A stretch of 64,000 nt of DNA from assembly GCA_000165345.1 (NCBI GenBank), contig CM000433.1:704001-768000 (forward strand), written 5' to 3'. Made by a program: the position numbers and the translations under genes. The notes beneath the pieces are model-generated. The model did not search any database. It saw only the letters and a list, made by a program, of their open reading frames with translations, and was not told the DNA's origin. Numbering within the stretch: the first letter of the stretch is position 1; each line of letters starts with the position of its first letter. Shown here one piece after another: positions 19,892 through 63,458 of this stretch.

Positions 19892-21105
19892 TTCTTCTGT
19901 ATTTTAGTATTTTCTTGCTTTTAATTGTTTTTATACCCAAATCTTAAGTTCCCTATTTCATTTTACTTTGGTATTTAATTATATTCTTAGAGGCTCAGAG
20001 CCATTTCCTTAAAAGTATATTTGACTTTTTGGTCAAAAGATTGAAATACTCAATTTCCACTGTTTTAATCCTTTAAATAAATATTTTTATTTTAAATTGC
20101 ATGTATTCAATTTCTATTTTTAATTTATTGATTTCTCCGCTTTTTTCTCCCCTCTCATCCCCACCCCCTACATGCTTTTTTTTACGTTTGCCAAAAAAAG
20201 CTTTTTCACTAGATAAAATATAACTTTCACTATTTTTCTCCTTAATTAAATTTCACTCACTATTTTGTTTTATACTTCTAAATCCCAACTTATTACAAAA
20301 TATGAAAATAAGAATTAGATTTTTTAAAAAAACAAAAAAATGAATTTCCCCACACATATGGAAATAATTATTAAAAAATCGCAACCAATTATTCTAAATA
20401 AATTGGCAGCTGCTATGCATGCACACATTTCTAATTCAATATATACAAGCGCATGCAAATTCAGACTTACATATTAGGTAATTACAATTGACATTTCTAT
20501 AAGAAAAGATTGTATTATGAGGAAAAAAAGACTTACAATACTATGATTTCACTGCTTTATCTGACAATTTAAAAAAAATTCGAAACACAATCTATATTAT
20601 CACACATTATAATTCACCTTGTAACAATAATTAATACATTCTTTCCTATTCCCTTTTTAATTTCCCTTTCATAAATAATCTTACGTGTCCGCATGCGATA
20701 TTAAAGAGGCGGGTACGGTTTATGACATTGCATGCATCCACAAACATGCAAAATAATTAGAGAAAAAAAATTGGTGGGTTGAGTAAAAAAAAAGGGAAAA
20801 TTTTGATAATAACAAAAACAAGTAAATATTTTCTACAATCCCAAAGAGTTATCTATCGTTTTTTTTCGCACAGAATATGTAATATTAAATGAAATGTCAA
20901 TCTATTAAGATTTTGGAGTTGAATTTCAGGATTAGTATTCTCTCCACAAATCTTGAAGTAGGAGTTTTCCCATAATACAATTTGAGAATACCTGATTTCC
21001 TTTCAAGATATTAATGGAATCTTCGATATGAATACGCCTTATGGTATATAAGTAAACTGGCATCAGATTTTCTCGTTAATGAAATCTCTATTTGAATTCT
21101 ATATA

Positions 21106-24100
21106 TCAACAGAATAGACCAATTGAATCAACAAAACTGTCAATATTTTGGCTAAATAATTTATCTCCAACAGTCTCGCAAGGAAAATCTTGAACAAGAT
21201 TTGAAGGAGCTAGTATATAAGCTGAAAATGGAGACATATTGAGAAAAACTGTTTGCTTGAGAGATTTTGTATTGACAAATCTATATGGAGATTCGTGTTG
21301 GAAATTGTTTGGAAATTTATTATTAACAATAGAATTAATATTTGAAGGCTCTGAGTTAGGGCTAAAAATCTTGAATCCTTGCTCAGATTTGATAGAAGTG
21401 GAACAAAAGCTGCCCGTGATATGATATTTTTTGTCTCCTCCAAATCTCTCATCTTGTGTGTCAATTATTAGACTCTGGGGAAGTTCACTTGAAATCCCAA
21501 ATCCATAATCGTTGTAATACTTTTCGCTGAAATTGAAAACAAAAACACAATTATTTCTCTCAATTACCATAACTTTATCCAATTCGTGGCACAATACTAC
21601 ATTAATATTAGATGATGAATTATACAAACTATCAGTTGTTAAGATCTTTAATGAATCTTTTGAATGCTTACCAAGGCTTTTTGCTCTAGAATAGATGTTT
21701 TGAATAGACTTTGAGCCTTCTTTTCCATTGCTTTGGGGGGTTGAGTCCAAATAAATGACAGATTCATTATCTACTGGGCTTGTATTATCCCCTGAGCTCT
21801 CTTCCAATTTTTTAATAATTGCTTCTTTCTTCGCTAAAACCCTCTTAGAAAATGTTGAAGCTGGGGAAATCTCTGAAGGTATTAATGAAGTAGAGGTTCC
21901 TTTAGTTAAAGGTGAAATTGATTTGGAGTAACAAGCTGAAGTAAGCCCATTCTTACCTAACTCTCCCTCACTACCACATGTTAACGGTGAAAGATAATTA
22001 TAATTGACTCCATAATCCTGAATGTTATTCTTGGCTATCCAGCTTAAAAATTTCTCAAGACGAATCAATAGAGTATTAAAGAATTCTAAATGCTTGAATT
22101 TCAAGTTCTTGTTATCTGCCAAATCCCATTTACAACACATTTTGCTATTATCCATGTTATTATTTGGTCTAGGAAGATCAAAAGAATCAGGATTTCCAAA
22201 TTCGGAGCCCATACTTTGAAAGACACCATTTTTTGCGAAAGCCATGGTTGTTAATATAAGTAGCTTTAACTGTTTAAGAGCAAAAACCGACTTGTCAAAA
22301 CCGTCAAATACCATCATATGATGATGAAGAGCATTTTCTCCAAAGGCTTGAAGAATGATGGGTGAATTTGGCTTAAGTATTAAGCTTGGAGTAACATCCA
22401 AAACATTGCACTGTTCAAAATACAAGAAACTAGTTGCTCGTGCAATTGAGTCCCATGAAAATGAATAAGCTGCTTTTACTCTACCTCTGGACCCCATCCA
22501 TCTAGAATGATCAAAGTTTTTCAATATCTCACAGCAACCCCAAGCAATGCTATCCTTACATGGCTCAACCAAGTACCCATCTACGTTCGGAGTTAAGAAA
22601 TCCCTTGGGCCGCCACTAGTAGTAGCAACAACAGGCTTTCCAGCTGTCCATCCTTCCAATACAACAATTCCAAATGGTTCATTTCTTGATGGTACTACTA
22701 CTGCGTCACAAGCCTTGTAAAGTCTGATTACATCATCTCCTGATTTCTTTCCAACAAATCTGATGGAATTGTAAATACCTAACTGATGAGATCTACGCAC
22801 AATCTCATCTTTTTGGTGTCCATCTCCAACTATGATAAATTTCGTATCATTACGATATTTCAAAATGCCAGGTACTGCTTCAATAAGTAAGTCAACTCCT
22901 TTTTGGAGAGCCATTCTTGCAACGCAAAGAAATGTTGGTTCCAAAGGTCCTATGCCGTATTGCCTTTTAACTTCGCCAGCATCATCCATTGCTACACTAT
23001 CAAAGGTCTTGCAATTAATTCCATTAAAAATTACTTTAATTTTGTTTCTATTTATTCCAAATAGTCTACATACTTCCTCTGCAAACACTCCACTTACACA
23101 AATTAGTCGGTCTGCAGTATGGGAGCCTTCTCTCTCTATATCAGAAATTCTACCGCTCTGTCCTCCATATGACTGATTTCCACATCTGCCGTATTCAGTA
23201 GAATGCAATGTTAGGATAGTAGTCCTATTATTATTTCCAATTCTTCTTAAACTTGTTAATACAGGAGCAGCTAACCAATCATGGCAATGACAAATATTGA
23301 ATCGATACCCATTCTTTACATTATTAAGCATTGGATGATCAGGTACCTTTGTTAGCCCATCTTCCCATCTCTGCATATAATATACAAACGAATTACACAT
23401 ATTTATAATTTCAGTAACAAAATCAGAATTCAACTGGAAAGGGCATTCATGGTATAATACTCCATCGTGAACTTTGATTATATATGCTGATGTAGTTGCC
23501 CTTGTGAATAGATGAACCTCGTGGCCAAGTCTTACAAGGCTTGCAGACAACTGTGAAACATGAGGTGAAACCCCACCAACTGAGTGAGTATAAAGACTTT
23601 CCCAACTGAACATTGCAATTCTGAGAGGATTCTGTGTCACCGTCTTCATCTCCAGAGATTCTATCCCATATAAGTTTCTGGAAACAAACTCAACTGTATG
23701 CAAATCAGATTCTCCCATATCCGAGTAACTATTATTATTGCCATTATCATTATCTCCTCTACTGGATATGTTTTGCTTCTCTCTGTTTTTGTATAAAATC
23801 CGAATCTTCTTATTGGAATTCCTCATTTTATCCTCATGGGGAAGCAACTCGTCAATTATATCTTTTTTAATATTTAAACTGGATGGGCTTTTAAGGATGA
23901 TGTCTTGCAAGGAGCTACAAATTGAAGTATTCCAAATATAGTCAAAGCCCATACCTCCATATTCCAAAGGTACTGCAAGCTCTGAACAAGCCTTGTCTTT
24001 GTTTTCTCTTAAGAGAAGCTCATTTGCTATTGTAATAGCAAATGGCTTAATTGTGTGGATTGTATCATTAATCAAAGCCAACACTGAGGAGATATAGGAG

Positions 24101-27100
24101 TATTTTTCTTGTTCTTCTGATAGATCTGGAACAGTGAATCTGAAGCCATCAATACCAAGATGAGTCAATAAATAGTGGAGAGAAGAGAATATTTGAGCTA
24201 ACATTGGAATGTAACCCAGATTGAGGCGACTGTAACTTTTATTGTAAGCAAATAGAGGTGAAATTACATCTGGAGTATGTTTGAAAAAGCTTGGATTGAA
24301 TGTATTCAAATTAGTAAGCATAAATGACTCATACAGATCAACAACAGAGTCATCCAAAAATAACTCATCAATTCTAACTATATTAGTACCAGAATTACCA
24401 TTTCCAAATATAAATGATCCCTCTCTGCTCATATTTCCGTTGCTTGCTTCGCTTCCTGAGCACATATTTATCTCATCAATGTCTATAATGTCTTGTAGAT
24501 TGCTCAAATTGTTGTTAACCTCCCTATCACATGGCTGAAGCATTGAGTTAGAATTAGTAATATCTGCAAATGTTAAGTTAAAGTCGACTATCACGGCAAT
24601 TCCTCTTGAATGGCAGTCATCCATTAAGTCCTTAAACTCTTCCAAGGTACCGTATTTGCTATAAGGAGTGAAATAATTGAATGGATACTGACTGTTGCTA
24701 AATGACTGATAATGCTCTAGTAAACCAGTCAACAGTAAACAATTATATCCTCCTCGAGATATCCTTGGTAGAACCTTTTCTTTAAAGCTTGCAAAAGTTC
24801 CAAATTCTCCCTTGGAAGAAAATGCAATATTTGCTTCATATATATACAAAGGTGATTGCCTAAAATTTGTCACAAGTCCTTTGACAATACTTGTAACTGG
24901 TATCTGATATTCCTTTCCATTTGAATCAAAGATATTATCTTTATTTTGCTTTAAATTTCCACCTAACCTTGGCTTTAAAACACATCTTGGAAGAGGGTAC
25001 TTGAGATCTCTATTTCTCAGGCCATCGTGCTCTTTTTGGCTTTCCAAGTAAAAATTACAATTCATTAAAGCATTCTCAGTACTATCTTTGATTCCTGAAG
25101 TAGTCAAAGATCTTGAATAAGAAAGTAATCTGTAAGTCTCCAGTTCTTGAGAAGAAACTGCTCCCATACTATTGTTGACTTCTGCCATATGACCTTCTGT
25201 GAATCCATCAGCCTTAGAAGTAACAATCCTAATTTTGAATGAAATAGAATTAGCTTTGGGACTACAACTTAAAAAACTTTCTAGCTTATTTTCATCCAAA
25301 ATTATTGAATACACCCTACTCTTCATAAAATGTGGAATTGAAGGGTAATTTTCATATATCTCTTGGTTCATTGAACAAATATTTTCTGTTTCAAGTTGCA
25401 TTGGGTGAGAAGTCTTATTCCAATCATTAAAATCGCCAACTAAGTAAATATTCATGGTTCTTAAGCCTCCCTTAATACTTCTTCTTCTTCTATTAAGTCC
25501 ATAGCAAAATACCTGGTCTGTAAGTTCATCCCCTATAAACTCCCTAATTAACCAAGCCCTATTGCCATTTCCCAATTCTGACTTCCTTTTCAGCTCTACT
25601 ACGCCCATACTCTTGTAAACTTCACAAAATTTTGTGAACCCTTCCCTACACCAAATCCTCTCATTCTCCATAGTTTTCTCATCCTTATCGGTATTTGTTT
25701 GTGCATGCGCATGTAATAAAGCAAAGCATTGCATGCAATTCCTATCAGAACATGTGGCGCCGCCCCACACTGACTTTGCCAACTTGGCCTTGAGCGTGTG
25801 CGTGTCGAACATCATTTCTCTGCACTCATAAAACTCTTCTTCCTTGACAGATTCCTGAATGACAGGTATTTCTTGGTTGTCTGTCAACTTTTCATTCTGG
25901 TTATTGTTACTATTAATTGTTGAGTTCGAGTACAATAAATTTTTCTTTCTAATATTCGATATTGCAACAGAGTCAGAAGCGCCAACTACCGCAGACTCCC
26001 AAAATCTTAAATTTGACCATTCTGAAACCAAAAGAGGATCTTCTTCAAATCCAATCACTTCTTCATCCTCAAATATCTCGATATCATCGATCACTTCCAA
26101 TTCTTTATTCTCATCTAGTCCCTCAAGAGTTGAACCTTTCTTTGATAGAGTTAAGTTCTCCGTGCTTGAATTAATAGAGGTTGTTACTGAGTCCAGGTCC
26201 GTGGATGAAAACCCATTTGCTGAGTCAACCAATTTGCAAGAGTCTGTTGAATAGTAATTCAATGTTGTAGCTATCGTTGATTTGCCATCCAAGTTTTCCC
26301 CTCCCATCATATTTTCTTTAATCTCTAGGTCTCTCTCAGAGTCTTCTGTTCTGAAAATGTTTAAATCCTCAAAATTCTCTAGTGAATTATAAATCAACTT
26401 CTGTGTCATAAACTCTGTTCTAGCTTCTCCAAGAGCCAAATCTTTTAAGGTTGAAATGTAACTGCTCCAATTATATGTACTCGTTACCATTGCATAATCT
26501 GTTGGATTCGTAAATATGTGAATCATATAAGCATCTTTCTTAGAGTTTGATAATGATAATTTCTTCAATTCATCCTCAAATCTTGCTTGTCCATCCAATC
26601 TATTCTCAATGCTAAAACTAAAAACAGTTAGGAATGATTCTTCCATCTTATTCAACCGAAAATCTTCATATAAAGTCTCAACATTATTTATAAGCTCTGA
26701 AATATTGCTAACTTCACTAAATTTCACCATAAAAGCTAAAGAAGACAAATCAAAACTTCGAATCTTCTCATTACTTTCTTTCAAAAATGTATTGCAAAAT
26801 GCCAATCCCAGGTTATTTCGTGAATTCTCTATATCTCTTCTCCTCTTTAAGGTTGTCATCATCCACTTTTCATTGCTAATTTCGCTCTTATTTCCTCCAT
26901 TCATATTCAAAATCGAGTTTGAGTGAGAAAAGTAATTCTGTAAAATCTCTCTCTCATTCTTGTCCACAATTACTTCAAACATCTTATTTCTAAAAACACC
27001 ATCACTATAATTAAAAAATTCAAGCATACATAGATTTCTTGGATCCTTATTATCTTCCAAAACCATCCAATAACTCCCTTTTACCATTCTTGAAAATTCA

Positions 27101-27315
27101 TTCAGTTGAAATATCAGTCCTAGCTTTTCTTTATCGTTTTCACATCTTATTAGAGTCATACTTAGTGGATAAGAGTCCAGAATGCAACATTCCCCTTCTC
27201 TATTACTACTTATCTCCTCATTTTCGTGGCATGTTAGAATATCTAGAGCCTCCTCTAGTTCCAGTCGCATTCTGTTTACATTTTTATCCAACTCAAGCTC
27301 CTCCCTATCACTCAT
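21106..27315 (-). CDS. 2069-aa alpha-glucan metabolism protein: GH13 branching-enzyme-like domain interrupted by a GT4-type glycosyltransferase domain
   Basis: ATG ORF (MSDREELELD...). GH13/branching-enzyme N-part at aa ~590-1140 (nt ~23898-25548): LVGDFNDWN, IYEANIAFSS...VLPRISRGGYNCLLLTGLLEH, GIAVIVDFNLTF, GIDGFRFTVPD, GGMGFDYIWN. GT4 domain at aa ~1230-1635 (nt ~22413-23628): RIAMFSWESLYTHSVGGVSPHVSQLSASLVRLGHEVHLFTR ... VVVPSRNEPFGIVVLEGWTAGKPVVATTSGGPRDF. Branching-enzyme C-part at aa ~1650-2040 (nt ~21198-22368): HHHMMVFDGFDKS..., FQSMGSEFGNPDSFDLPR..., KVMVIERNNCVFVFNFSEKYYNDYGFG...FGGDKKYH. Confidence 0.85.
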   Translation of the reverse strand: MSDREELELDKNVNRMRLELEEALDILTCHENEEISSNREGECCILDSYPLSMTLIRCENDKEKLGLIFQLNEFSRMVKGSYWMVLEDNKDPRNLCMLEFFNYSDGVFRNKMFEVIVDKNEREILQNYFSHSNSILNMNGGNKSEISNEKWMMTTLKRRRDIENSRNNLGLAFCNTFLKESNEKIRSFDLSSLAFMVKFSEVSNISELINNVETLYEDFRLNKMEESFLTVFSFSIENRLDGQARFEDELKKLSLSNSKKDAYMIHIFTNPTDYAMVTSTYNWSSYISTLKDLALGEARTEFMTQKLIYNSLENFEDLNIFRTEDSERDLEIKENMMGGENLDGKSTIATTLNYYSTDSCKLVDSANGFSSTDLDSVTTSINSSTENLTLSKKGSTLEGLDENKELEVIDDIEIFEDEEVIGFEEDPLLVSEWSNLRFWESAVVGASDSVAISNIRKKNLLYSNSTINSNNNQNEKLTDNQEIPVIQESVKEEEFYECREMMFDTHTLKAKLAKSVWGGATCSDRNCMQCFALLHAHAQTNTDKDEKTMENERIWCREGFTKFCEVYKSMGVVELKRKSELGNGNRAWLIREFIGDELTDQVFCYGLNRRRRSIKGGLRTMNIYLVGDFNDWNKTSHPMQLETENICSMNQEIYENYPSIPHFMKSRVYSIILDENKLESFLSCSPKANSISFKIRIVTSKADGFTEGHMAEVNNSMGAVSSQELETYRLLSYSRSLTTSGIKDSTENALMNCNFYLESQKEHDGLRNRDLKYPLPRCVLKPRLGGNLKQNKDNIFDSNGKEYQIPVTSIVKGLVTNFRQSPLYIYEANIAFSSKGEFGTFASFKEKVLPRISRGGYNCLLLTGLLEHYQSFSNSQYPFNYFTPYSKYGTLEEFKDLMDDCHSRGIAVIVDFNLTFADITNSNSMLQPCDREVNNNLSNLQDIIDIDEINMCSGSEASNGNMSREGSFIFGNGNSGTNIVRIDELFLDDSVVDLYESFMLTNLNTFNPSFFKHTPDVISPLFAYNKSYSRLNLGYIPMLAQIFSSLHYLLTHLGIDGFRFTVPDLSEEQEKYSYISSVLALINDTIHTIKPFAITIANELLLRENKDKACSELAVPLEYGGMGFDYIWNTSICSSLQDIILKSPSSLNIKKDIIDELLPHEDKMRNSNKKIRILYKNREKQNISSRGDNDNGNNNSYSDMGESDLHTVEFVSRNLYGIESLEMKTVTQNPLRIAMFSWESLYTHSVGGVSPHVSQLSASLVRLGHEVHLFTRATTSAYIIKVHDGVLYHECPFQLNSDFVTEIINMCNSFVYYMQRWEDGLTKVPDHPMLNNVKNGYRFNICHCHDWLAAPVLTSLRRIGNNNRTTILTLHSTEYGRCGNQSYGGQSGRISDIEREGSHTADRLICVSGVFAEEVCRLFGINRNKIKVIFNGINCKTFDSVAMDDAGEVKRQYGIGPLEPTFLCVARMALQKGVDLLIEAVPGILKYRNDTKFIIVGDGHQKDEIVRRSHQLGIYNSIRFVGKKSGDDVIRLYKACDAVVVPSRNEPFGIVVLEGWTAGKPVVATTSGGPRDFLTPNVDGYLVEPCKDSIAWGCCEILKNFDHSRWMGSRGRVKAAYSFSWDSIARATSFLYFEQCNVLDVTPSLILKPNSPIILQAFGENALHHHMMVFDGFDKSVFALKQLKLLILTTMAFAKNGVFQSMGSEFGNPDSFDLPRPNNNMDNSKMCCKWDLADNKNLKFKHLEFFNTLLIRLEKFLSWIAKNNIQDYGVNYNYLSPLTCGSEGELGKNGLTSACYSKSISPLTKGTSTSLIPSEISPASTFSKRVLAKKEAIIKKLEESSGDNTSPVDNESVIYLDSTPQSNGKEGSKSIQNIYSRAKSLGKHSKDSLKILTTDSLYNSSSNINVVLCHELDKVMVIERNNCVFVFNFSEKYYNDYGFGISSELPQSLIIDTQDERFGGDKKYHITGSFCSTSIKSEQGFKIFSPNSEPSNINSIVNNKFPNNFQHESPYRFVNTKSLKQTVFLNMSPFSAYILAPSNLVQDFPCETVGDKLFSQNIDSFVDSIGLFC

Positions 27316-28232: not shown

Positions 28233-30147
28233 AATCTTTATATGAAAAACTTGAATTGAATTATAAAATGAATTTGAACTGAATTAGTGAGATTCCAAAT
28301 CGTACCCAAAGTAACTCAAAAGCAGAAATGAGAAGAAAAAAAAATTAGAGGGAAATTATTCGCTCTAAACCTTTTTTTCTATTATTCTGCTTATATAGTC
28401 CTTGGTTATTGCCTAAATTGCACCCTTTTTCTAACAGGTCAGGTTTACTTGTTTTATATCTTTTTCTTCGTGTAAATACAATTCCTAAATCTTATAAAAA
28501 TTGGAATAAGCTTAGCTTTGTCAATCTTTACTGAAGAAAAAAAATATACTGGTTACTTTTGTCTTATTTTTTCCTTCTAACCTTTTTCCACGCGAATTCG
28601 AGAGTAGAAAGATTCTGCTTGCAATCAGAAATGTGCAACTCTTTTCTTCTTTCCTATTAGTATATATATATTTTTTTGGAGCCTATTAACTAATTATTTA
28701 AAAAAAATTGTAATCTGTAATTAGATGATTTGAAATATTCGGCTTTTCAGAAATATTATCCAGGTTGAATTTCCCTTGTATCTCTAATCTAGGACTTGTC
28801 TTGATATTTTAACTTTTGAAATAAGAAAAAAAGAGGATTAGGAATTCACACCTTAAAGAATATCTGTTATATTTATTATTAATAAATATATAAAATATTT
28901 ATATTTTAATGCATGTATATACACCAATATATTTTCTATATACACATATACATAAAAAAAATGTATATAGTATATTAACTATATAATAATGGTTCCAGTA
29001 AATTGAGTTGAACCAACCTTGAAAAACTTTGGCTGAATTTTCAGAAATAGATTTTGTGACATATGATGTTAATATTTAGAGTTAATGCATTAATCCCAAT
29101 ATATTCTTTGATTTTCTTTTATATATACAATAGAATGGATAAATTAATGTTTATTTATTGTAATATTCTTTTGCTTCTTTGACTTTTAAGCAATTAATAA
29201 GAATACTATAACTAAGTTCAATTTCTTTTATTTAATTTCCAACTGAAATTTGTGTGTGAATTTTTCGATATATATTACCTTTATGAACTGTTAACTTATT
29301 AGTTAGTTTAAAAAAAAAAATGCTGCACAATACTATAAGAACCTCGAAAACTTTAAACTCGGAAAGTAATTAAATAATTTAATTTTACTCTGACCCTCTT
29401 CCTTCAAGCTCGAGCGAAGATTTACTTAAATAATTTGATTTGCACACTTCTTGTTGCTCGAAAATAATTTTATTTTCACAATCAAATAATAAACACAGAC
29501 TTTTAACACGGATTAATTAAAAAAATGAATGAATTGTCGAAACTACTCAAAATACTAAAATTTAGTATGAAAATACTCCTTCATGTAATTTTTGCTTTTT
29601 TTTCTTTTTTTACCTTTTTTTCTCACATATAATTTTTTCCCCCTTATATTAAGCCCTAACCTAATTATTAATTAAATACTACCCGCTCCCACATTCGACC
29701 GCCTATATAGTATTCATTTTTTTAGTGCAAGTGTGCATTGTAAATTTTGAGAAAGAAAAATAAATAAATATATATTTCATATATATTTACAAATTACAAA
29801 AAATACAAAATATAAAGTTGTTTACAATTAATTAAATTTACGGTAGATTCCCAAATTAATTTTAAATATTTCCCTATTCTCATTCCCTATCCTTTTCCTC
29901 ACATCGAATTTCACTCTACTTGTTTCTTTTCATCACGTTTAATAACAATCTACATACTATCACCCCCCTTATACACTCAAATGCGCCCCCCCGTCGGTCC
30001 GGATATGGGGCTCTATATTATCCCATCCACCTATCTCCCCCATTTTATTCCCACCTTTCTACACTCCCCCCACCTTTTACCCCCTATACAATTTTTTGTT
30101 AAACTACCGCCTTTTTATTTTAAAAAAATTACACGCCCCCTTGCCAC

Positions 30148-30442
30148 NNNNTTNTNANTTNNATNAATNNGCNNNNCTNANNNNNNANANNNNNNNAGNN
30201 NNNANNNNNNNNNNNNNNNANNTNNNNNNNNNNNNTNNCTNNNNTNTTNNNNNNNNNCNNNNNNNNCNNNNNTNNNTNNCNNTNNCTNNNNANNNNNNNT
30301 NNTTTNNNNNTTTTTNNNNNNNNNNNNNNNNTNNTNNTTNNTNNNTTTNNNNNNNNTNTTTNANNNNCANNNNNNNNTTNNCNNNNNNTNCNNNNNNNNN
30401 NNNANNNNTNNNNNTTTTNNCNNNCNNNNNANNNNNNNNNTN
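30148..30442. other. Partly N-masked / low-quality block (assembly gap or masked sequence)
   Basis: About 295 positions, mostly n with scattered called bases. A C-rich tract (29940-30147) lies immediately upstream. Content cannot be interpreted; the listed X-containing ORFs here are artefacts. Confidence 0.9.
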
Positions 30443-31026
30443 TATATAATGTTAAACACTAACTAATATTACTTAGTTGTCCATACTATTTAGCTTTATA
30501 TTTTGCTATACTAATTATATAAGGCTTTAATTATTAGATTAGATTGTACTATATATTTTCGCAGAAAATTTCAACTCGGCTCAAAAGCATTTTATTGGTA
30601 TAATTAGCCTATTTATTTGCCAAGCCCTTCCCTAAGTTCACTTCATAAATTTTGTTGGTTTTGCTTAAACTTTAAAGGGCAAAACATTTTTTTTATTAAA
30701 AACTATCAAACTAAAGAAACTTTGACTAAATAGATAATCTCATTTGTAGAATTAAAATAATACTCCTTGCCACCTCCGTAATATACAAAAAAATTTGTAA
30801 AAAAACAATTAATTGAATTTGTTCTTATTTCGTGTATGAAATTCATTTCAAAAAAATAATACGATAACTTCCGCTCATTTAATTAAATTAATATAGTTTT
30901 TCTATTATTAAAAAAAAAATGTTCTTAAAGAAAATTTAGCGGCCTTTATGCCTGCCTTGTATTTTAGAATACTTTTCTTAATCCATTCTTGATATGATAA
31001 TAACATCTGACTACGTAATCGTCGAG

Positions 31027-32738: not shown

Positions 32739-34085
32739 CTTTTGTTACTTGTGTAATATGCCCGAAATCTATGAAAAAAAAAAATCTATATTGTAAGTAA
32801 GCTATATATAAAATATAAAAACTGCTCTATTAAACTACTACTTTGCTTGCCGTACAATTCTTATTATCTCTTTATCCAAGTATTTAAAGATATGTATACG
32901 CACGCAGGAAAATAAAAATATACTTTGGATTTTTAATGCGCACTGTACGTATCGTAAAAAGATTCATCTCACTTTTTACATGTTGTCTATTCTAAATTTA
33001 TACTTGATTTTTATTTAATCTCTAAACTTTGTCATGTAATCGTCTATTAATACGTATTGGCGCGCGTCTATGCATGGTGGGCGGCAAGGTGCATGCAATT
33101 TGACATAAATGCATTCAATGCAAGATTTATATTTAATATAAAATTTGGTCTTTTTTTTTTACTAAAATCTAACCTTTTTTTATTTACATAACTAAGATTC
33201 GTTTAAATTAATACGTTTCACGTCGTAATATTTATCAAGTAATGTATGTAGCATTGTATACATGTGATGTACGAATTTGTATAAACCTGTAAAGTTTTTT
33301 TCAATTTAAAGTAGCAAATTAATCTTTATAATAAAAAATAACAAAAAAGTGTTGCTTATTATTGGTATTATTTTAATACTAGATAATAGAATTTCTTTTC
33401 TTTTAATCTTTCATTTATGTGTGCGATGCAATACAATGAATTGGCGGAAATATGTGTAGTTTCCTTTTCACTTAATAGTCCTTATATTAATATCAAAAAA
33501 CTATAAACAAATATTTAAAATGGTATAGCAAATTCATCAAATCTTCTTAGTTCTTTTATACTATAGCTTAGAATTTGTAAGTAAGTCTAATTTTTTATTT
33601 ATTTTGAACTCATTCTGTATCTAATGTATATACTTATGATGCTAAATGACTTATTTGGTCATTTTTATAGCCCTAACGCTTTCTATTATTACTGTTTATA
33701 ACCAACTCATTCTGAAGCCCACTATACCTTCCACTTTAAATCTGGTATTAACTATTGATACTATCCAAACCGAACACGCCGAATAAGGTGCACCTCCTCT
33801 CATAATCAAACCAATGTAAAAAACCAAGTATATACAGAAATAAATGAATTTTCAAACCCTAGTGCGCGTACATATTCATAGCAAATACCAATTCTCAACC
33901 TAATAAAAACAAGTTCTAATTACTCAACACTACTTATGATACAAATATTTATCTGAATATATAAATATAAATGCACTGATACATATATGAATATACCTGA
34001 TTCTACATCTCTTCTCATTACCTGTCAATTTCTTTCTTCTCCACCCTCTTCTCCCTATTAATACTAGAATAAATAAATTTTGCAC

Positions 34086-34098
34086 TTTCCCGCCAAAA
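34086..34098. promoter_or_regulatory. E2F-like motif tttcccgccaaaa, ~190 bp upstream of the histone H2B ATG
   Basis: Direct sequence. Its position in front of a replication-type histone gene is consistent with E2F-type cell-cycle control. Confidence 0.4.
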
Positions 34099-34290
34099 CC
34101 CTCAGTAACTGTGGGGCGCATGTATACGTCTCTTAGAAATAAAAGGAAGAATAAATAGTAAAATAGTAAAGGAGAGTAAGGTGTGGATATTAAGTGGATT
34201 TCTCTACAATTTCAACTTTGTGAAAAAAAAGGACAATCACAGTCCGCGGTTCTACACGAATTAGGAAAATTAAGCACAAATAGTATAAAA

Positions 34291-34638
34291 ATGGCCCCAA
34301 AAATGTCTTCAAAGAACAATAAAGGTGCAGCTCCAAAGAAGATCCACAAGAAGAAGAAGGAGAGTTACTCTACATATATCTACAAGGTATTGAAGCAAGT
34401 TCATCCAGAAACTGGAATCAGTAAAAAGTCTATGATGATTATGAACAGTTATATCTCTGACACCTTCGAGAAAATCGCTCAGCAAGCTGCTCAGCTTTGC
34501 CAAACTACCAAGAAGGATACTATCGCATCCAGAGAAATCCAAACTGCAGTCAGACTTGTTTTACCAGGTGAACTCGCAAAGCATGCAGTTTCTGAGGGTA
34601 CTAAGGCTGTTACCAAGTTCACTGGAGGACAAAAGTAA
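34291..34638 (+). CDS. H2B: Histone H2B (115 aa)
   Basis: [70 protein letters not shown]...[10 protein letters not shown]. The ORF-track start at 34183 is a GTG artefact; the real ATG is at 34291 (aaaATGGcc). Confidence 0.95.
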
Positions 34639-34643
34639 GTCAA

Positions 34644-34659
34644 TGAATCTTTTGATTCA
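34644..34659 (+). other. Perfect 6-bp/4-nt hairpin (TGAATCttttGATTCA) 6 nt after the H2B stop codon
   Basis: Read directly. Same geometry as a histone mRNA 3' stem-loop, but the stem sequence is not the metazoan GGYYYU consensus. Confidence 0.3.
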
Positions 34660-35074
34660 TTTTATTTCCATTTTCTCCATTCAAGAATCGGGGATCTGGA
34701 GAATCTAGCAGATCTCCTTATCTTAAATGGATCTTCTTTCGGAAACTAATGGGGATATCTTTGGTGTACATGAATTGGATTAGGTTTCTTAACAATTACT
34801 TAAGAAATTTATCCTATCAGTGCTGTTATACTAGAAAGTGATTCCAAGGGCTTATATTTCAAAATTCTAATTCAAGTAATAATAGGATTTAAGTATCATC
34901 AAATATGAATCCAATCAAAGGCTACTTATACCAGGCGTCACTAGACNCCACATTTTCTGTCACTTTATCAACTAAAATAGAATAATTAATGAATATGTAT
35001 ACTATATTTATATTGTTTCTTTTTCACTCTCCTGTCATAAATCTAGCCAGTGAATCTTCTGTTGATGTTGTAAC

Positions 35075-36679
35075 CTAGAGGTGGTAATAGTTTGTTAAAG
35101 AAAAATTTAAGGTAGGTGGAATTTTGCTACTGGATGTTACTCCTTTTGAACTTACCATTCTTTCTATTGCTTTTAGCTCTTTCAATATTTGTACAATACT
35201 AATCCTTTTTGGATAGGAATTCTCCCAACTAACTTTATTTACTTGTAATTCTATATTTGTATTATTTTGAACATTAAGTGTGGAAGAGGAGGTTGGATGG
35301 AAAGATGAAGATGAAGATGAAGATAAAGATTGGGAAGATGAAGATGATGAAAGAANANNAANAANAATGANTNTGGAANTNGNNNANAAGNTGTCATNNA
35401 NCNTNNNNTNGCNNTAGTCCAATAATCTCCTTAAAATGAAGAATATGTGATAATTTTGAAAACCCACAACATCTTGAAACAAGACCTTGGATGAGAGATA
35501 TATTGCTAAACAAAAGTGAGTCTTTAACAGGATTAAGATCTAATGTGGCGCCAGAATAACCAACATAAGCTTGAACTTGGAGATTCCCAAGCCCACCAAA
35601 AGGAGGTTGCCCATTAATCATTTCCCAAAGAATTGCTCCTATAGAATAAGAATCGATTGATTGACAGCGTTCAAACTTATTCTCTAGATATAGTCTTGCC
35701 GGCTCTAGTAGAGGAGAATTAGTTTTAAGAACTTCTGGAGGTAAATAGTTCAGGATTCTATCATCTGAAAGTCTAGGGGAGCTGGAAACCTGGTTTAAAA
35801 ATGAAAATTCATTTTCAATAGAAGAACAATTCAGATTTGGAAAATCCAAACTTGAATTAGAGTCAGTGTTAGTTGTAACTTTCTTATTTCCCAGTATATC
35901 CAAGTAAATACTATCGTTTGGATAAAAAGAAGCTTCCAGTAAACAATGTCCAAAGTCTGCAAGCTTAACTGATAAATCTTCCTCAATTAATATATTAGTA
36001 GGTTTTAAATTTAGATGAAATATACCTCTTTGTTTTAAATACAAACATCCTGTAGCTATTCCTTTAGCAATTTTGATAGCACTTTGAGTATGAATTCCAA
36101 AAGATAAATTATATTCTGGAATTTCTGGCCAAAATGATGGATTTTGACTTCTGGAATTTGGACTTAGAATTAGATTTAAACTGGACATGCTTAAATCCGA
36201 GATATTATTTAGCTCTGATCCAGTATTCATTTCAAAATCGGTTTCAAAATTTGGATTAAAATTTAAATTTGGTATATAATAAGTGAATTCAGGATTCATC
36301 TTAATCTCATCATGACTAACTTTTTCTGAATTGTTATTAATTGTATCTTTTAAATTATAATAATATGGTGGGAAATTCATTTTTATGGATTTTGAATCAG
36401 AATCTTTCCATACACAATTATACATGCAAATACAAGATCCTTTATATAGGAGCTTTTGAAGAGAACCATTATGTACATATTCAGTTATAACACAATGTAT
36501 ATCTGAAGAATAATGACAAAATCCCAAAGTTAAAATTAAACAAGGATGTCTTAAAGACCAAATAAGCTTGCATGTATTTTCCCAAAGCTTTAATTGTAAT
36601 ATCTTCCCTCTAAAGACTTTAATAACAACATCCTTTCCAAGCCATTTCCCAAGATAACAGCAGGAACTACTGGAAAAAA
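35075..36679 (-). CDS. Exon 2 of the same gene: TKL-like protein kinase domain with degenerate catalytic motifs (predicted pseudokinase); 3' end disturbed by the N-masked block
   Basis: Acceptor tttacAG at plus 36681-36680; intron 36680..36744 is 65 nt and AT-rich. The splice joins in frame to ...CKCSKG|VFSSSCCYLGKWLGKDVVIKVF...RHPCLILTLGFC...VITEYVHNGSL...HLNLKPTNILI...KLADFG...PPEVL. HLN replaces HRD and PPE replaces APE. The ORF-track start at 36527 is a TTG artefact. The kinase frame enters the masked block at 35356-35414; a Ser-rich tail continues in another frame to the stop at 35075. Confidence 0.55.
35356..35414. other. Partly N-masked block inside the kinase coding region
   Basis: n characters interleaved with called bases. 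Explains the apparent frame change between ORFs 35394..36527 and 35075..35482. Confidence 0.9.
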
Positions 36680-36744
36680 CTGTAAACAGTGTGAATTACT
36701 ATTATTCAAAATCTATATATAATATTTAAATTGAAAGAACTTAC

Positions 36745-37594
36745 CTCCCTTACTACATTTGCATGGAAAATCTGTCCTTTCTAACTTTTGGACGAAGATC
36801 AACTGTTCAAAAGGGATATTAATCCCAGAATAACTATATAGATTTAAAGGTCTTGATATGAATAAAGGCGGAAGAAAACTTTTTTTGGTGATTTCAGATT
36901 CAGTTGGATATTTAATAAATTGTCTAGGTAAGAACAATGGTCCAAAAACTAATCTAAATTGTTTAATACAATTGCTTAGCTTAATTCTATGACCAACTTT
37001 ATTAACTCCAAGTGCTCTAGCAATACCATTAGCTGATAAAAGATTGGAAGAAAGTAGCAAATCATCTAATGTTAATTTCTTATGAATGAGCTCAAAATAA
37101 TCATCCAATTCCCAATTTTTTAATAAATCCTTCAATAAATTATCAAATTTTTCTTGATCATGTAATTGATTGTTTTTGAAATACTCTAATTCTGGGTTTA
37201 TATCGTAATACTTTTCTATTCTTGAATTCCCTAATATCTTTCTCTTTTCATTAAACTTCCTGTCAATATTTATAATAGTTTTTGTTTTAAACAAGTTTTC
37301 ATCTATTTTTGGTATTTCATACCTTCCTAAGAAATACCCCCTACTAAACTCCCCAGCTTTATACTCAGATTCATACATACTTCCATCTAATGCTACCATT
37401 ATCCCTTTTCCTTTACGTCCTACTTTTGATACCTTTCCAACAAATTTGCTTTGATCTTTTTCCCTAAAATAAACTATTCCAACTTCTTCTAATATATTAT
37501 AGTAGCTTTGATGGTCTTTAAGTTCAAATTTTTTTTCTTTTGAGTTTAACTCAGTCTCTATACATATATCCCCATTGGAATATATTAACAACAT
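36745..37594 (-). CDS. Exon 1 of a SAM-domain/pseudokinase gene (SAM-containing N-terminal part)
   Basis: ATG-initiated ORF 36713..37594. SAM-like segment LLKNWELDDYFELIHKKLTLDDLLLSSNLLSANGIARALGVNKVGHRIKL. The exon ends ...AGTAAGGGAG|GTAAGTTC with a perfect donor (plus 36744-36739). The in-frame TAG 30 nt further on is intronic. Confidence 0.6.
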
Positions 37595-37780
37595 TTTTTT
37601 GCTTACCTTTTCTATCCATCCGATAAATAGAAGTGTTTCAAAAGAGTTAATCTACATAACACACAGCATAAATGCACAAAAACTTTCCGTATCGGTACTT
37701 CATCATTTACTAATTATTCTCTTTTATTTTCTCTCTTGACATTAATTTAATTTGTGCAAATCTTTAGTCACTCAAAATAG

Positions 37781-37805
37781 TTCCCGCCATGTGGCGCCAT
37801 GTGGG
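37781..37805. promoter_or_regulatory. Tandem E2F-like motifs ttcccgccatgtggcgccatgtggg in the divergent kinase/ACS promoter
   Basis: CCCGCC and GGCGCC cores ~190 bp upstream of the kinase-gene ATG (minus). A GCATGCA motif follows at ~37835. Confidence 0.4.
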
Positions 37806-38296
37806 ATTTTTTTATTTCATTTTGCATGCAATGGGCCACTAGTATATTTCAAAGAACAAGGAGTCGAAAACAAGAGAATAAAGACAAGATAGTTAAACTG
37901 TATAAAAGAACAGAATAGAGTAAAAAACATGATAAGTTATTTATTGTATTTGAGAGAAAAGGAACGATAGTATAGCAAAAAGGGGGGTACCTCTAGTAAA
38001 GTTGTTATGAATATCGTAATTAACACAATATACTAAAATGTTGTTATATCTTTGTTGAGAATAAATCACTAACATGAAAAAATAAAATTAGAAAAACTTA
38101 TAAAGAAAAGAAAAACAAATTTTTTTATTCTGTTAAACGGGCTTGTGACAACTACATTGCTTTAATTTGTTTATGTATCAAATCATGAAATTTGTGTTTT
38201 TTTGATAATAGTTAATTAGTGATAAAATAATTTATATATCCTTTCTTGAATAAATGAATAATATATTAGTTTATTGAAATTTCTACTAACCACACA

Positions 38297-38310
38297 TTTC
38301 CCGCCAAAAC
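38297..38310. promoter_or_regulatory. E2F-like motif tttcccgccaaaac, ~500 bp upstream of the acyl-CoA synthetase ATG
   Basis: Direct sequence; same motif family as at 34086. Confidence 0.35.
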
Positions 38311-38812
38311 AATGCATTATAAATAAATACTAAGATAATAAGTTAAAGATTAATAAATTAACATTATGAACAAATGTAGTGAGGTACCAAAAAAATATAA
38401 ATTTTTTCAAATTATAATTTCTTATGGTTGAGTATTAAAGTGTTTTTAACATTGGATTTATAGGATTTAACAATTATTAATTTTTTTAATTTCTTAATAC
38501 GAAATTTAAACAATTATAATAATTATATTTCAAGTTTAATCTCTTTTTGAAGACTAAATTTCAATTAGTAAATATAATAGACTTAATTTTGAATAATAGT
38601 ACTAAGCCAAGTTTATAATCTGATTTGAACTTCGAAATTAATGTATTTTAAATCATAAAAATTTCAAGGTTTAGTTCAACAAATATATAAATATATATAT
38701 ATTTATTTATATGTTAAATATATAAATTTATTAATTCAATTAAGAAAATCCAGGAATCCGATAAAATTTGAGGACAAAAAAAAAGAGATAAGTGAATATT
38801 ATTGGAACTAAC

Positions 38813-63086: not shown

Positions 63087-63458
63087 TTTGAAACCTTTTT
63101 CAAGTCGTCTCAAACTAAACCTTTAGTTGTTATTTTTCTAATCCAACATCAATTTAAAGTAACTTTTTCATATTATCTGTTAATTTATTTATATATATTA
63201 ACCAAGTTTCTTTCAAAATATAAAGCTTTAAGTTTTCTTATAGTATTTCTTCCAAAACCTTTAGGCTATACCAATAATTCCGTCTATTGTACTAAAAGAA
63301 AGCTAAATTCCACAAAATCTGTAAATTTTCTACGTAAAATTCCGATTTTTATCAAATTTCTTTTTTCTGGATTATTTTTTCAATTTTTCCTGCCCTGACT
63401 TAATATATACCCGGTTACCGGTATTTAATTATTTAAATAAATATATCATGTCATAAAA

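What the first reader, a model, noticed from the sequence alone, without database searches (positions are those of the whole stretch)
35075..37594. ORF track splits one spliced gene: SAM domain plus TKL-like pseudokinase joined by a 65-nt intron
The 293-aa SAM-containing ORF ends at a TAG that lies inside an intron. A perfect donor G|GTAAGT at 36745/36744 and acceptor ACAG at 36680 fuse it in frame to the kinase ORF; that ORF's listed start is a TTG, with the reading frame continuing upstream of it. The kinase has a degenerate Gly loop, HLN in place of HRD (catalytic Asp to Asn) and PPE in place of APE, while retaining the VAIK-type Lys and DFG. This predicts a pseudokinase. The 3' end passes through the N-masked block 35356-35414, which explains the frame jump into the Ser-rich tail ORF.
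Basis: partly seen in the sequence, partly recalled or inferred. Interest (0 to 1): 0.6.

Follow-up and report, generated by a model that had tools for sequence, protein, structure and literature searches.

The report
Split Cryptosporidium pseudokinase gene, already re-annotated
The two reading frames are one three-exon Cryptosporidium parvum gene for a catalytically dead, kinase-like scaffold protein; newer public annotations already show it this way, so it is correct but ordinary.

Summary
On the minus strand, a 65-nt GTAAGT...ACAG intron (36744..36680) joins the 293-aa ORF in frame to the kinase ORF. The frame jump at 35356-35414 is a sequence-quality artefact: the window has 4 surplus bases and 26 Ns there, and clean genomes read straight through.

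Both are conserved in six Cryptosporidium species.

The window is C. parvum chromosome 5 (old models cgd5_3190 + cgd5_3180). My three-exon protein (806 aa) is identical to GenBank QOY41843.1 (CPATCC_002445), from an annotation whose authors state all introns have RNA-seq support. C. hominis carries the same model, so the gene structure is already known.

The protein has MORN-like repeats, a divergent SAM domain and a TKL-type kinase-like domain. The glycine loop is lost and HRD is HLN. The Asp-to-Asn change is invariant across the genus; Lys, Glu, Asn and DFG-Asp are kept.

It shares a derived signature and the C-terminal tail with Plasmodium pTKL, which binds ATP but was inactive in vitro. 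It is probably the Cryptosporidium pTKL counterpart, though a tree did not resolve this. Low interest.

The parts
35024..37594 (-). Whole coding region of one three-exon gene (C. parvum cgd5_3190 + cgd5_3180, equal to CPATCC_002445). It encodes 806 aa in the clean sequence.
   Evidence: Spliced model built. The exact 806-aa sequence is in GenBank as QOY41843.1 / WRK32556.1.
36745..37594 (-). Exon 1 (850 nt): start codon, MORN-like repeats, SAM domain, and the start of the kinase N-lobe (IPFEQL...CSKG).
37319..37486 (-). MORN-like beta-hairpin repeats (about residues 37-92).
   Evidence: The orthologue profile matches MORN1 (6t4r, E=5e-4) and MORN4. The AF2 model shows beta-hairpins, and the top fold match is TgMORN1 at prob 0.95, which is not significant.
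36947..37156 (-). Divergent SAM domain (about residues 147-216).
   Evidence: Pfam SAM_1/SAM_2 score above cutoff in the C. canis (26.4 bits), C. andersoni (28.5 bits) and L004 (20.8 bits) orthologues. This protein scores 19.4 bits, just below cutoff. The model shows five helices at pLDDT 57-81.
36680..36744 (-). Intron 1: 65 nt, GTAAGT...ACAG, phase 1, 20% GC. It contains the TAG that ends the 293-aa ORF and lies in the degenerate glycine-loop region of the kinase-like domain.
   Evidence: Donor position conserved in C. canis (69 nt) and the L004 species (60 nt).
35156..36679 (-). Exon 2: the rest of the kinase-like domain, with large inserts and a Ser-rich insert. It contains the low-quality block.
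36618..36620 (-). Beta-3 Lys (K304, VVIKV), invariant in six species.
36009..36017 (-). H-L-N in place of HRD (N507 replaces the catalytic Asp). HLNLKPxN is invariant in six species.
   Evidence: Aligned to VHR[D/N]LKSPN of CTR1.
35949..35957 (-). DFG (D525 invariant; DVG or DIG in other species).
35733..35741 (-). PPE in place of APE.
35351..35416 (-). Low-quality block: 26 Ns (35356-35414), 4 surplus bases and 1 mismatch relative to otherwise identical clean genomes. It produces an artefactual +1 frame jump.
   Evidence: Clean reading ...EIIGHSKKRLMTSSIQFPQSCSSSS... from P0002.
35075..35155 (-). Intron 2: 81 nt, GTAAGT...CTCTAG, phase 0. The listed ORF reads through it to the TAG of the acceptor.
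   Evidence: Conserved in all six species (50-91 nt).
35024..35074 (-). Exon 3: 16 codons plus TGA, VTTSTEDSLARFMTGE*. This is the conserved C-terminal tail motif ED.L..FM.G.
   Evidence: The same tail ends Selenidium, Vitrella and Plasmodium pTKL proteins.

Best explanation
**Gene structure (shown).** Window 37594..35024 (minus strand) is one three-exon gene of Cryptosporidium parvum chromosome 5. A prokaryote-style ORF list, and the 2004-2015 annotations, split it into a 'SAM' ORF (cgd5_3190) and a truncated 'Ser/Thr kinase' (cgd5_3180). The mature mRNA loses a 65-nt intron inside the kinase N-lobe and an 81-nt intron just after the kinase domain. The apparent frameshift near the 3' end is a low-quality stretch of this assembly.

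**Protein (shown).** The 806-aa product has MORN-like repeats, a divergent SAM domain and a TKL-group kinase-like domain with three large inserts. A 16-residue tail (...EDSLARFMTGE) is encoded by its own micro-exon.

**Function (inferred).** The domain has lost the glycine-rich loop and the catalytic base (HRD to HLN). It keeps the beta-3 Lys, alphaC Glu, catalytic-loop Asn and DFG Asp. It is therefore most likely a non-catalytic pseudokinase that may still bind nucleotide. It would act as a scaffold or allosteric partner, with SAM for protein contacts and MORN for membrane or cytoskeleton contacts. It is probably the Cryptosporidium counterpart of Plasmodium pTKL.
For: **Splicing**
- Frame-restoring intron 1.
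- The donor is conserved at the same codon in two further species, with intron lengths 65, 69 and 60 nt. Stops occur in two of the three.
- Three more distant species have a continuous ORF.
- Intron 2 and exon 3 are conserved in all six species. Within EDSL..FMTG the nucleotide changes are mostly synonymous third-position changes.
- The exact 806-aa product is QOY41843.1 (CPATCC_002445), and the C. hominis 802-aa models use the same junctions.
- That annotation reports its introns as 100% RNA-seq supported (PMC8744675).

**Artefact**
- The window matches two clean genomes at every called base across 4.6 kb outside the block, which carries 4 extra bases.
- The C. parvum reference is reported to have a stretch of ambiguous bases in this part of chromosome 5 (PMC4637869).

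**Kinase class and degeneracy**
- Pfam Pkinase 7.5e-19.
- Best PDB hits are CTR1 and RAF. HLN aligns to HRD and the Gly loop aligns to Ser residues.
- K304, E317, N507, N512 and D525 are invariant.
- The gene was not found in the text or held supplements of a kinome census restricted to 73 kinases with intact catalytic triads.

**pTKL link**
- In an exhaustive profile search, the best hits outside the genus are Selenidium and Vitrella proteins. Both have MORN and SAM-like N-terminal sequence by eye, plus GHLNLKPSN and the same tail.
- A Plasmodium pTKL profile also picks those two first.
- The signature GC.YL...xNLKP[ST]N plus the tail occurs in exactly 15 of 163 sequences: these proteins, Plasmodium pTKL, and six environmental proteins carrying HKN instead of HLN.
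- PfpTKL has the same Asp-to-Asn change, binds ATP and was inactive in vitro (PMC6544628).
Against: - I saw no junction reads myself. The RNA-seq support is taken from the annotators' general statement, not from data for this gene.
- Orthology with Plasmodium pTKL is not shown by phylogeny. A neighbour-joining tree of 219 kinase-core columns gave no bootstrap support for any grouping beyond the genus.
- Score rankings are asymmetric. Seen from Selenidium, Vitrella or Plasmodium, the Cryptosporidium proteins rank below many canonical TKLs.
- I defined the shared signature after seeing the sequences.
- The C-terminal tail also occurs in TKLs with an intact HCD, so it is not specific to the pseudokinases.
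- The conserved Lys, Glu, Asn and Asp would equally fit weak or unconventional catalysis. No activity data exist for the Cryptosporidium protein.
- The N-myristoylation signal (MG...) of pTKL-like proteins is absent from the C. parvum start.
Confidence: 0.8

Rival explanations
1. Two separate genes, as in the older annotations: a 293-aa SAM protein, and a 446-448-aa kinase starting at an internal Met (MYNCVWK).
For: Several deposited annotations keep them apart: C. parvum Iowa II, C. hominis TU502/UdeA01, C. sp. 43IA8 and C. tyzzeri.
Against: - The 448-aa model lacks the whole N-lobe (beta-3 Lys, alphaC), which is nevertheless conserved and in frame upstream.
- Three species have one uninterrupted ORF.
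- The evidence-based annotation fuses them.
- Homologues in Selenidium (a transcriptome ORF), Vitrella and Plasmodium carry MORN, SAM and kinase on one chain.
Confidence: 0.03
2. The frame jump is real, and this strain carries a frameshifted or truncated gene (a pseudogene).
For: As written, the window sequence has a TGA in the kinase frame inside the block.
Against: - The block is peppered with Ns.
- Every called base outside it matches clean genomes across 4.6 kb.
- The intact 448-aa reading is indexed in 38 blocks of the public collection; 24 contigs carrying it were read.
- The reference is documented to have ambiguous bases in this region.
Confidence: 0.03
3. An active kinase with an unconventional mechanism. 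Asn or another residue would substitute for the catalytic base, as proposed for some kinases once called 'dead'.
For: The beta-3 Lys, alphaC Glu, catalytic-loop Asn and DFG Asp are invariant in proteins only 37-66% identical to C. parvum's. This points to selection on the nucleotide pocket.
Against: - The glycine-rich loop is absent and the catalytic Asp is replaced in every species.
- The closest characterised relative, PfpTKL, bound ATP but had no activity, even after Asn-to-Asp reversion.
Confidence: 0.12
4. A Cryptosporidium-specific degenerate paralogue of the active MORN-SAM TKLs (CpTKL1/CpTKL3). It would have lost its catalytic Asp independently and would not be an orthologue of Plasmodium pTKL.
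For: - The tree is unresolved and reciprocal ranks are asymmetric.
- The C-terminal tail is shared with HCD-bearing TKLs.
- CpTKL1 and CpTKL3 have MORN and SAM too.
- The published pTKL phylogeny lists no Cryptosporidium member.
Against: - The best hits outside the genus are HLN-bearing Selenidium and Vitrella proteins, which are also the best outside hits of Plasmodium pTKL.
- The derived signature GC.YL...LNLKP is shared.
- The split models available in 2019 would have hidden the gene from a reciprocal PSI-BLAST screen.
Confidence: 0.25

Closest known systems
Plasmodium pseudo-tyrosine-kinase-like protein pTKL (PF3D7_1106800 / PBANKA_094010; Gnangnon et al. 2019, PMC6544628)
   Same: - N-terminal MORN motifs, then SAM, with the kinase-like domain at the extreme C-terminus.
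- Subdomain VIB Asp replaced by Asn within xxNLKP[ST]; canonical glycine triad lost; DFG retained.
- Large inserts, including one in the activation segment.
- Beta-3 motif GKDVAIKV, the GC.YL motif before the catalytic loop, and the C-terminal ...EDAL.SFMDG tail.
   Different: - No conserved RVxF (PP1-binding) motif seen by eye.
- No N-terminal MG myristoylation signal in C. parvum, although C. andersoni has MG.
- Much shorter: 806 aa, against a PfpTKL kinase domain mapped to residues 1080-1483.
- His of HRD kept (HLN, against P/W-x-N in Plasmodium).
- Orthology is not resolved by the tree, and Cryptosporidium is not in the published pTKL phylogeny.
- No export to a host erythrocyte is possible in this parasite.
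Active apicomplexan MORN-SAM TKLs (PfTKL1/PfTKL3; CpTKL1 cgd8_2430; Artz et al. 2011 also describe SAM and MORN in the C. parvum TKL-3 orthologue)
   Same: Same domain order and the same kinase group. Some TKLs with an intact catalytic loop end in the same ED.L..F..G tail.
   Different: Those enzymes keep GxGxxG and the catalytic Asp (HCD or HRD) and autophosphorylate. This protein has neither feature.
CTR1 / RAF kinase domains (TKL group; PDB 3p86, 3ppz, 3omv)
   Same: Best solved-structure sequence matches across the N-lobe, catalytic loop and alphaF. The top-scoring hit, 3p86, is the D676N form of CTR1; that this mutant is kinase-dead is from my own recollection.
   Different: No CRD/RBD or EDR1-type regulatory regions. 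Three large inserts. Natural rather than engineered loss of the catalytic Asp.
Asn-for-Asp pseudokinases such as HER3 (HRN) and JAK JH2 (HGN). This comparison comes from general knowledge and was not tested here.
   Same: The same single substitution of the catalytic base, with the nucleotide-binding residues retained.
   Different: Unrelated families and partners. Only an analogy for the mechanism.

Membership tests
Eukaryotic protein kinase fold, TKL group | Significant match to protein-kinase profiles, with nearest relatives among TKL kinases | tested here: met
   Pkinase 7.5e-19 and PK_Tyr_Ser-Thr 3.1e-18. Top PDB hits are CTR1 (2e-20) and RAF.
Catalytically competent protein kinase | GxGxxG loop, VAIK Lys, alphaC Glu, HRD Asp, catalytic-loop Asn and DFG Asp all present | tested here: not met
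   The Gly loop is replaced by a Ser/Cys run, and HRD Asp is Asn (HLN) in all six species. Lys, Glu, Asn and DFG Asp are present.
Pseudokinase (functional definition) | No phosphotransfer activity in an assay | not testable with these tools
   Only inferred from the motifs and from PfpTKL, which was inactive in vitro.
pTKL (pseudo-TKL) family | Domain order MORN, SAM, kinase-like domain at the C-terminal end | tested here: met
   MORN. SAM: (above cutoff in three orthologues, 19.4 bits against 20.5 for this protein). Kinase-like domain.
pTKL (pseudo-TKL) family | Subdomain VIB Asp replaced by Asn, with no glycine triad | tested here: met
   PfpTKL description.
pTKL (pseudo-TKL) family | Shared sequence signature (GKDVAIKV, GC.YL...xNLKP[ST]N, C-terminal ED.L..FM.G) | tested here: met
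   15 of 163 sequences carry it: Cryptosporidium, Selenidium, Vitrella, Plasmodium pTKL and the environmental HKN group. PfpTKL, PVX and Py tails. The pattern was defined post hoc.
pTKL (pseudo-TKL) family | Phylogenetic grouping or reciprocal best hits with Plasmodium pTKL | tested here: inconclusive
   The NJ bootstrap gives no support beyond the genus. Both genera have Selenidium and Vitrella as their best outside hits, but not the reverse. The word-index search with the pTKL-like profile returned no Cryptosporidium protein.
pTKL (pseudo-TKL) family | RVxF PP1-binding motif in the kinase domain (Plasmodium clade feature) | not tested
   I inspected the sequences only by eye and noticed no conserved [RK][VI]x[FW]. 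No systematic scan was run. The paper describes the motif as specific to the Plasmodium clade.
pTKL (pseudo-TKL) family | N-terminal myristoylation signal (MG...) | tested here: not met
   C. parvum starts MLLIYSNGD. MG is present in C. andersoni, Selenidium, Plasmodium and the HKN group.
SAM domain (Pfam SAM_1 / SAM_2) | Score above the Pfam gathering threshold | tested here: inconclusive
   This protein scores 19.4 and 18.5 bits against cutoffs of 20.5 and 23, covering half the profile. Orthologues score 26.4-28.5 bits over the full profile. The AF2 model has five helices, but the fold search found no significant SAM match.

The most novel reading that the evidence does not exclude
The Cryptosporidium gene, Plasmodium pTKL, the Selenidium and Vitrella HLN proteins and a set of environmental HKN proteins may form one ancient family. 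The family would be defined by a dead catalytic loop, the order MORN then SAM then pseudokinase, and a ...ED.L..F(M/I).G C-terminal tail that Cryptosporidium keeps on its own micro-exon.

If so, pTKL arose before parasitism, since a free-living chromerid has it. Its role in the exported erythrocyte compartment in Plasmodium would then be a late addition. The tail, which some active TKLs share, would be an unrecognised docking or autoregulatory element.
Probability: 0.5. Interest if true: 0.35.

Novelty: new member of a known kind. Interest (0 to 1): 0.2.

Why it matters
**For genome scanning.** This is a clean example of a prokaryote-style ORF track and a low-quality sequence block breaking up an intron-containing eukaryotic gene. 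The fix was already made in the IOWA-ATCC annotation.

**For Cryptosporidium biology.** The value is modest.
- The kinome census I read (73 kinases with intact catalytic triads) does not list this gene in its text or held supplements. It appears to be the parasite's counterpart of Plasmodium pTKL, the one TKL-family pseudokinase that has been studied experimentally.
- The deposited models for C. canis, C. andersoni, C. bovis and C. ryanae all read through the last intron and lack the conserved terminal exon. The C. canis model also translates intron 1. These are correctable annotation errors, and they would distort any dN/dS or orthology analysis of this gene.

Tried and rejected
1. **AF2 model of the N-terminal 283 aa** (5-sequence alignment). 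Mean pLDDT was 48. The Foldseek search against PDB gave nothing at E<=0.001; the top match was TgMORN1 at E=0.19. It could not confirm the SAM fold.

2. **Neighbour-joining tree** with 200 bootstraps on 219 kinase-core columns of 77 sequences. Only the genus itself was recovered (200/200). Every deeper grouping scored 0-4/200, so orthology to pTKL is not demonstrated this way. An earlier Biopython version timed out.

3. **Word-index homologue searches.** Searches with the spliced protein and with the genus alignment found only Cryptosporidium orthologues plus weak generic hits, mostly plant kinases. A search with a pTKL-like profile returned Plasmodium and generic kinases but no Cryptosporidium protein, so it gave no reciprocal test.

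4. **Artz 2011 kinome paper and its supplements.** The gene is not listed. I read this as exclusion for a non-intact catalytic triad, but that is my inference.

5. **Isaza 2015 supplement.** cgd5_3180 and cgd5_3190 are still listed as separate genes, so the fusion post-dates that reannotation.

6. **Upstream 5' exon.** I considered one beginning at the out-of-frame ATG just upstream of the start (ATGGATAGAAAAG|GTAAGC). I rejected it because splicing there would delete the conserved SNGDICIE motif, and the evidence-based model starts at MLLIYSNGD.

7. **Alternative explanation of the 3' frame jump.** I considered an intron running from the LIQG region to VSWENSYPKR. I rejected it because clean genomes read straight through in one frame.

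8. **Rfam scan of the intergenic region.** Nothing reached threshold. The C/D-box snoRNA idea was rejected because the boxes are not conserved in C. canis.

9. **Submitting my corrected models** to the exhaustive search.
Full report
**What the window is.** The sequence is about 30% GC and carries very long uninterrupted ORFs. The gene's neighbours are histone H2B, actin and an acyl-CoA synthetase-like AMP-binding gene. All homologues of the target are from Cryptosporidium. The 293-aa ORF is identical to C. parvum Iowa II XP_626247.1. A C. hominis member of the same cluster is tagged CHM_5g3190, which fixes the old gene names as cgd5_3190 (N-terminal ORF) and cgd5_3180 (kinase). Over 38600..34001 the window matches two clean genomes (Cryptosporidium sp. 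43IA8 CP029784.1 and a Logan assembly) at every called base, apart from one short block.

**Check of the observation.**
- The 293-aa ORF (37594..36713, minus strand) stops at a TAG inside a 65-nt segment, 36744..36680. The segment begins GTAAGT and ends ACAG.
- Removing it joins the two ORFs in frame through a split codon (G|TT = Val). The junction reads ...FPCKCSKG-V-FSSSSCCYLGKWLGKDVVIKVF....
- The kinase ORF's listed start is TTG, and its frame is open upstream to a TAA within the intron.
- Intron 1 is 20% GC against 29-31% for the flanking exons.
- A GTAAGT hexamer alone is weak evidence. The window has 36 against about 24 expected.

**Comparative evidence for intron 1.** I fetched the orthologous loci of five other species through their deposited proteins. 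All sit in the same gene neighbourhood.
- In C. canis and in an unnamed species about 65% identical (locus L004), GTAAGT lies at exactly the same codon position. The intervening segments are 69 and 60 nt, diverge freely, and in L004 contain stops.
- After removal, the junction peptides are CSHR-A-LSGSSCYLGKW and CSSR-A-SSSSSCYLGKW.
- In C. canis the segment happens to be open and in frame, and the deposited model translates it.
- C. andersoni, C. bovis and C. ryanae have no intron there. One continuous ORF runs from the N-terminal domains through the kinase domain.

So the two window ORFs are one gene.

**The 3' end.** The N block (first N at 35356, last at 35414) lies in a stretch where the window has 26 Ns, one mismatch and four surplus bases (2+1+1) relative to the clean genomes. 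That is a net +1 shift. Clean sequences read ...HFKEIIGHSKKRLMTSSIQFPQSCSSSSSSSSSSQSL... in one frame. A published reannotation notes a stretch of ambiguous bases in this part of the chromosome 5 reference (PMC4637869).

- In all six species the residues after the last kinase helix are 'VS' (ERM-VS, EVM-VS*, QQT-VS, EKR-VS, ERK-VS). The DNA there is GTAAGT in every case.
- Downstream, each species has an AG acceptor, 50-91 nt from the donor (81 nt here, 35155..35075, ending CTCTAG).
- A 16-17 codon exon follows: VTTSTEDSLARFMTGE* here (35074..35024), TISSAEDVLTGFMTGH* in C. andersoni, and MTSKEEDSLTEFMTGSY* in C. bovis.
- Within EDSL..FMTG the nucleotide differences are mostly synonymous third-position changes.
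- The stop that ends the listed 'tail ORF' at 35075 is the TAG of this acceptor.

**Is this already known?** Yes.
- The three-exon protein assembled from the clean sequence (806 aa) is present, residue for residue, as QOY41843.1 (CPATCC_002445, C. parvum IOWA-ATCC) and WRK32556.1.
- C. hominis OLQ18469.1 and PPA63165.1 (802 aa) use the same two junctions.
- The paper describing the IOWA-ATCC annotation reports manual, evidence-based curation and says its introns are 100% supported by RNA-seq (PMC8744675). This is indirect support. I did not see reads for this gene.
- Older or automated annotations still split the gene: Iowa II, TU502, UdeA01, 43IA8 and C. tyzzeri.
- The deposited single-exon models of C. 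canis, C. andersoni, C. bovis and C. ryanae all lack the terminal exon.

**The protein.**
- Pfam finds a protein-kinase domain: Pkinase 7.5e-19, PK_Tyr_Ser-Thr 3.1e-18.
- A profile of the six corrected orthologues hits CTR1 and RAF kinase domains best among solved structures, which places it in the TKL group.
- In that alignment fHLNLKPsN lies on VHR[D/N]LKSPN and vkLaDvG on VKVCDFG.
- GkWLGkdVviKv lies on AEWHGSDVAVKI, and the CTR1 glycine loop IGAGSFGTV lies opposite a Ser run.
- The top-scoring hit is the D676N form of CTR1.
- In proteins only 37-66% identical to C. parvum's, these residues are invariant: K304, E317, H505-L506-N507, N512, D525/G527, P598-E599, D626 and R774.
- So the catalytic base and the glycine loop are lost throughout the genus, while the nucleotide- and metal-binding residues are kept.
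- The gene does not appear in the text or held supplements of the 2011 C. parvum kinome paper, which counted 73 kinases with intact catalytic triads.

**N-terminal region.**
- The orthologue profile matches MORN repeat proteins (MORN1 at E=5e-4, MORN4).
- SAM_1/SAM_2 score above Pfam's cutoffs over the whole profile in the C. canis, C. andersoni and L004 orthologues. This protein scores only 19.4 bits, on the C-terminal half.
- An AlphaFold model was poor overall (pLDDT 48). It showed beta-hairpins at residues 37-92 and five helices at 147-216 with pLDDT 57-81. The fold search gave no significant match.

I accept SAM by orthology and rate it inconclusive for this sequence alone.

**Relatives outside the genus.** An exhaustive profile search of 1.8 billion representative proteins found 11 proteins at E<=1e-30.
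- After the Cryptosporidium entries, the best hits are a Selenidium pygospionis transcriptome ORF (703 aa, 6.9e-45) and Vitrella brassicaformis CEM16412.1 (900 aa, 2.6e-39).
- Both have MORN- and SAM-like N-terminal sequence by eye, LGK[DE]VA[IV]KV and GC.YL...GHLNLKPSN. They end ...AETELLRFMDGV and ...AEDALITFMDGP.
- A group of short environmental proteins has HKNLKPSN and ends ...AEDALITFISGR.
- Further down the list is a Plasmodium vinckei protein (1210 aa). It has an MGN start, MORN, SAM, MGKDVAIKV, GCSYLEKQKVQWLNLKPTN, DFG, and the ending ...EEDALMSFMDG.
- Its N-lobe sequence is nearly identical to PBANKA_094010 as printed in the supplement of Gnangnon et al. 2019. PfpTKL there ends ...VEDALISFMDGT. 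This protein is therefore the P. vinckei pTKL.

That paper describes pTKL as follows (PMC6544628):
- MORN, SAM and a pseudokinase domain.
- Subdomain VIB Asp mutated to Asn, and no glycine triad.
- An insertion of about 50 residues in the activation loop.
- ATP binding without catalysis, even after Asn-to-Asp reversion.
- SAM and RVxF interactions with SERA5 and PP1.
- Homologues in Plasmodium, coccidia and Gregarina. Cryptosporidium is not listed.

**Testing membership of the pTKL family.**
- A neighbour-joining tree of the kinase core was unresolved beyond the genus. Distances are saturated at 1.1 or more.
- In profile rankings, the Cryptosporidium profile and the Plasmodium pTKL profile each choose Selenidium and Vitrella as their best outside hits, and those two are each other's closest single-domain relatives (a multi-domain protein, P0086, outscores Selenidium from the Vitrella side). 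From their side, however, the long-branched Cryptosporidium and Plasmodium proteins rank below many canonical TKLs.
- The composite signature GC.YL...xN[LIV]KP[ST]N occurs in exactly 15 of 163 sequences. These are the six Cryptosporidium proteins, Selenidium, Vitrella, Plasmodium pTKL and six HKN proteins, and all of them also carry the tail. I chose this pattern after seeing the data.
- The tail alone is not diagnostic. Several TKLs with an intact HCDLKSSN also end ...VEDSLWEFMAG or similar.

I put membership at roughly two in three.

**How it most likely works.**
- Shown: one gene, two introns, and the domain order MORN, SAM, TKL-like domain, tail. Also shown: loss of the catalytic Asp and the Gly loop, and retention of Lys, Glu, Asn and Asp under long-term conservation.
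- A published C. parvum versus C. hominis table lists 0.02 for cgd5_3180 in what I take to be its dN/dS column. A C. parvum versus C. bovis comparison listed the gene among those under positive selection. That comparison rests on models that include intronic or low-complexity sequence.
- Inferred: the domain may bind nucleotide but does not transfer phosphate, as measured for PfpTKL. The protein would then act as a scaffold or allosteric partner. SAM would mediate protein contacts and MORN membrane or cytoskeleton contacts. The conserved tail would be a docking or intramolecular element.
- Nothing here tests these steps.

**Verdict.** The gene structure is already in public evidence-based annotation, and the protein belongs to a known kind of pseudokinase. 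The small new points are the probable pTKL assignment for Cryptosporidium, the wide conservation of the C-terminal tail and its micro-exon, and correctable model errors in four other species.

Noticed in passing
window 34932-34952 (intergenic, between the 3' ends of the kinase-like gene and H2B): A 21-nt block, TGTGGCGTCTAGTGACGCCTG on the minus strand, forms a perfect 6-bp stem with a 4-nt loop. It is invariant in all six Cryptosporidium species compared and unique in the window (0 expected). It lies 56-101 nt after the kinase-gene stop and 156-359 nt after the H2B stop. Rfam gives only a sub-threshold Histone3 stem-loop match on the H2B strand (11.5 bits against 34). Its function is unknown.
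   Followed up: partly
window 34825-34930 (minus strand): Sequence downstream of the hairpin is conserved among the three intestinal species (GATACTTAAATCCTATTA, ACTTGAATTAGAA, AAGCCCTTGGAATCACTT). Rfam gives a weak SNORD98-like match (E=0.82), but the C and D boxes are not conserved in C. canis. It may be an unannotated non-coding RNA or UTR element.
   Followed up: partly
L001 (C. canis), L005 (C. andersoni), L006 (C. bovis), L007 (C. ryanae): the 3' end of each deposited gene model: All four deposited single-exon models read through the conserved GTAAGT donor after the kinase domain. They end in unrelated intron-encoded residues and lack the conserved terminal exon (...ED.L..FMTG.). The C. 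canis model also translates the 69-nt intron 1 as 23 extra residues.
   Followed up: yes
window 34183-34638 (+): This is histone H2B. The listed 151-aa ORF starts at an upstream GTG. The real protein is most likely the 115-aa MAPKMSS... form annotated in the other species.
   Followed up: partly
window 30148-30442: A second, larger block of interspersed Ns lies inside a listed 161-aa ORF (29981..30466, +). It is probably another low-quality stretch that could break a gene model.
   Followed up: no
window 37606-37621 (minus strand, just upstream of the start codon): An out-of-frame upstream ATG (ATGGATAGAAAAGGTAAGC...) sits 25 nt before the annotated start. C. andersoni and relatives outside the genus start with MG (a possible myristoylation signal), whereas C. 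parvum starts MLLIYSNGD.
   Followed up: partly
window 5549-19891, 21106-27315 and 56832-63113 (all minus strand): Three very long uninterrupted ORFs of 4780, 2069 and 2093 aa. GTAAGT sites at 20465-20536 (minus strand) lie between the first two, so these could also be exons of one gene. Not examined.
   Followed up: no
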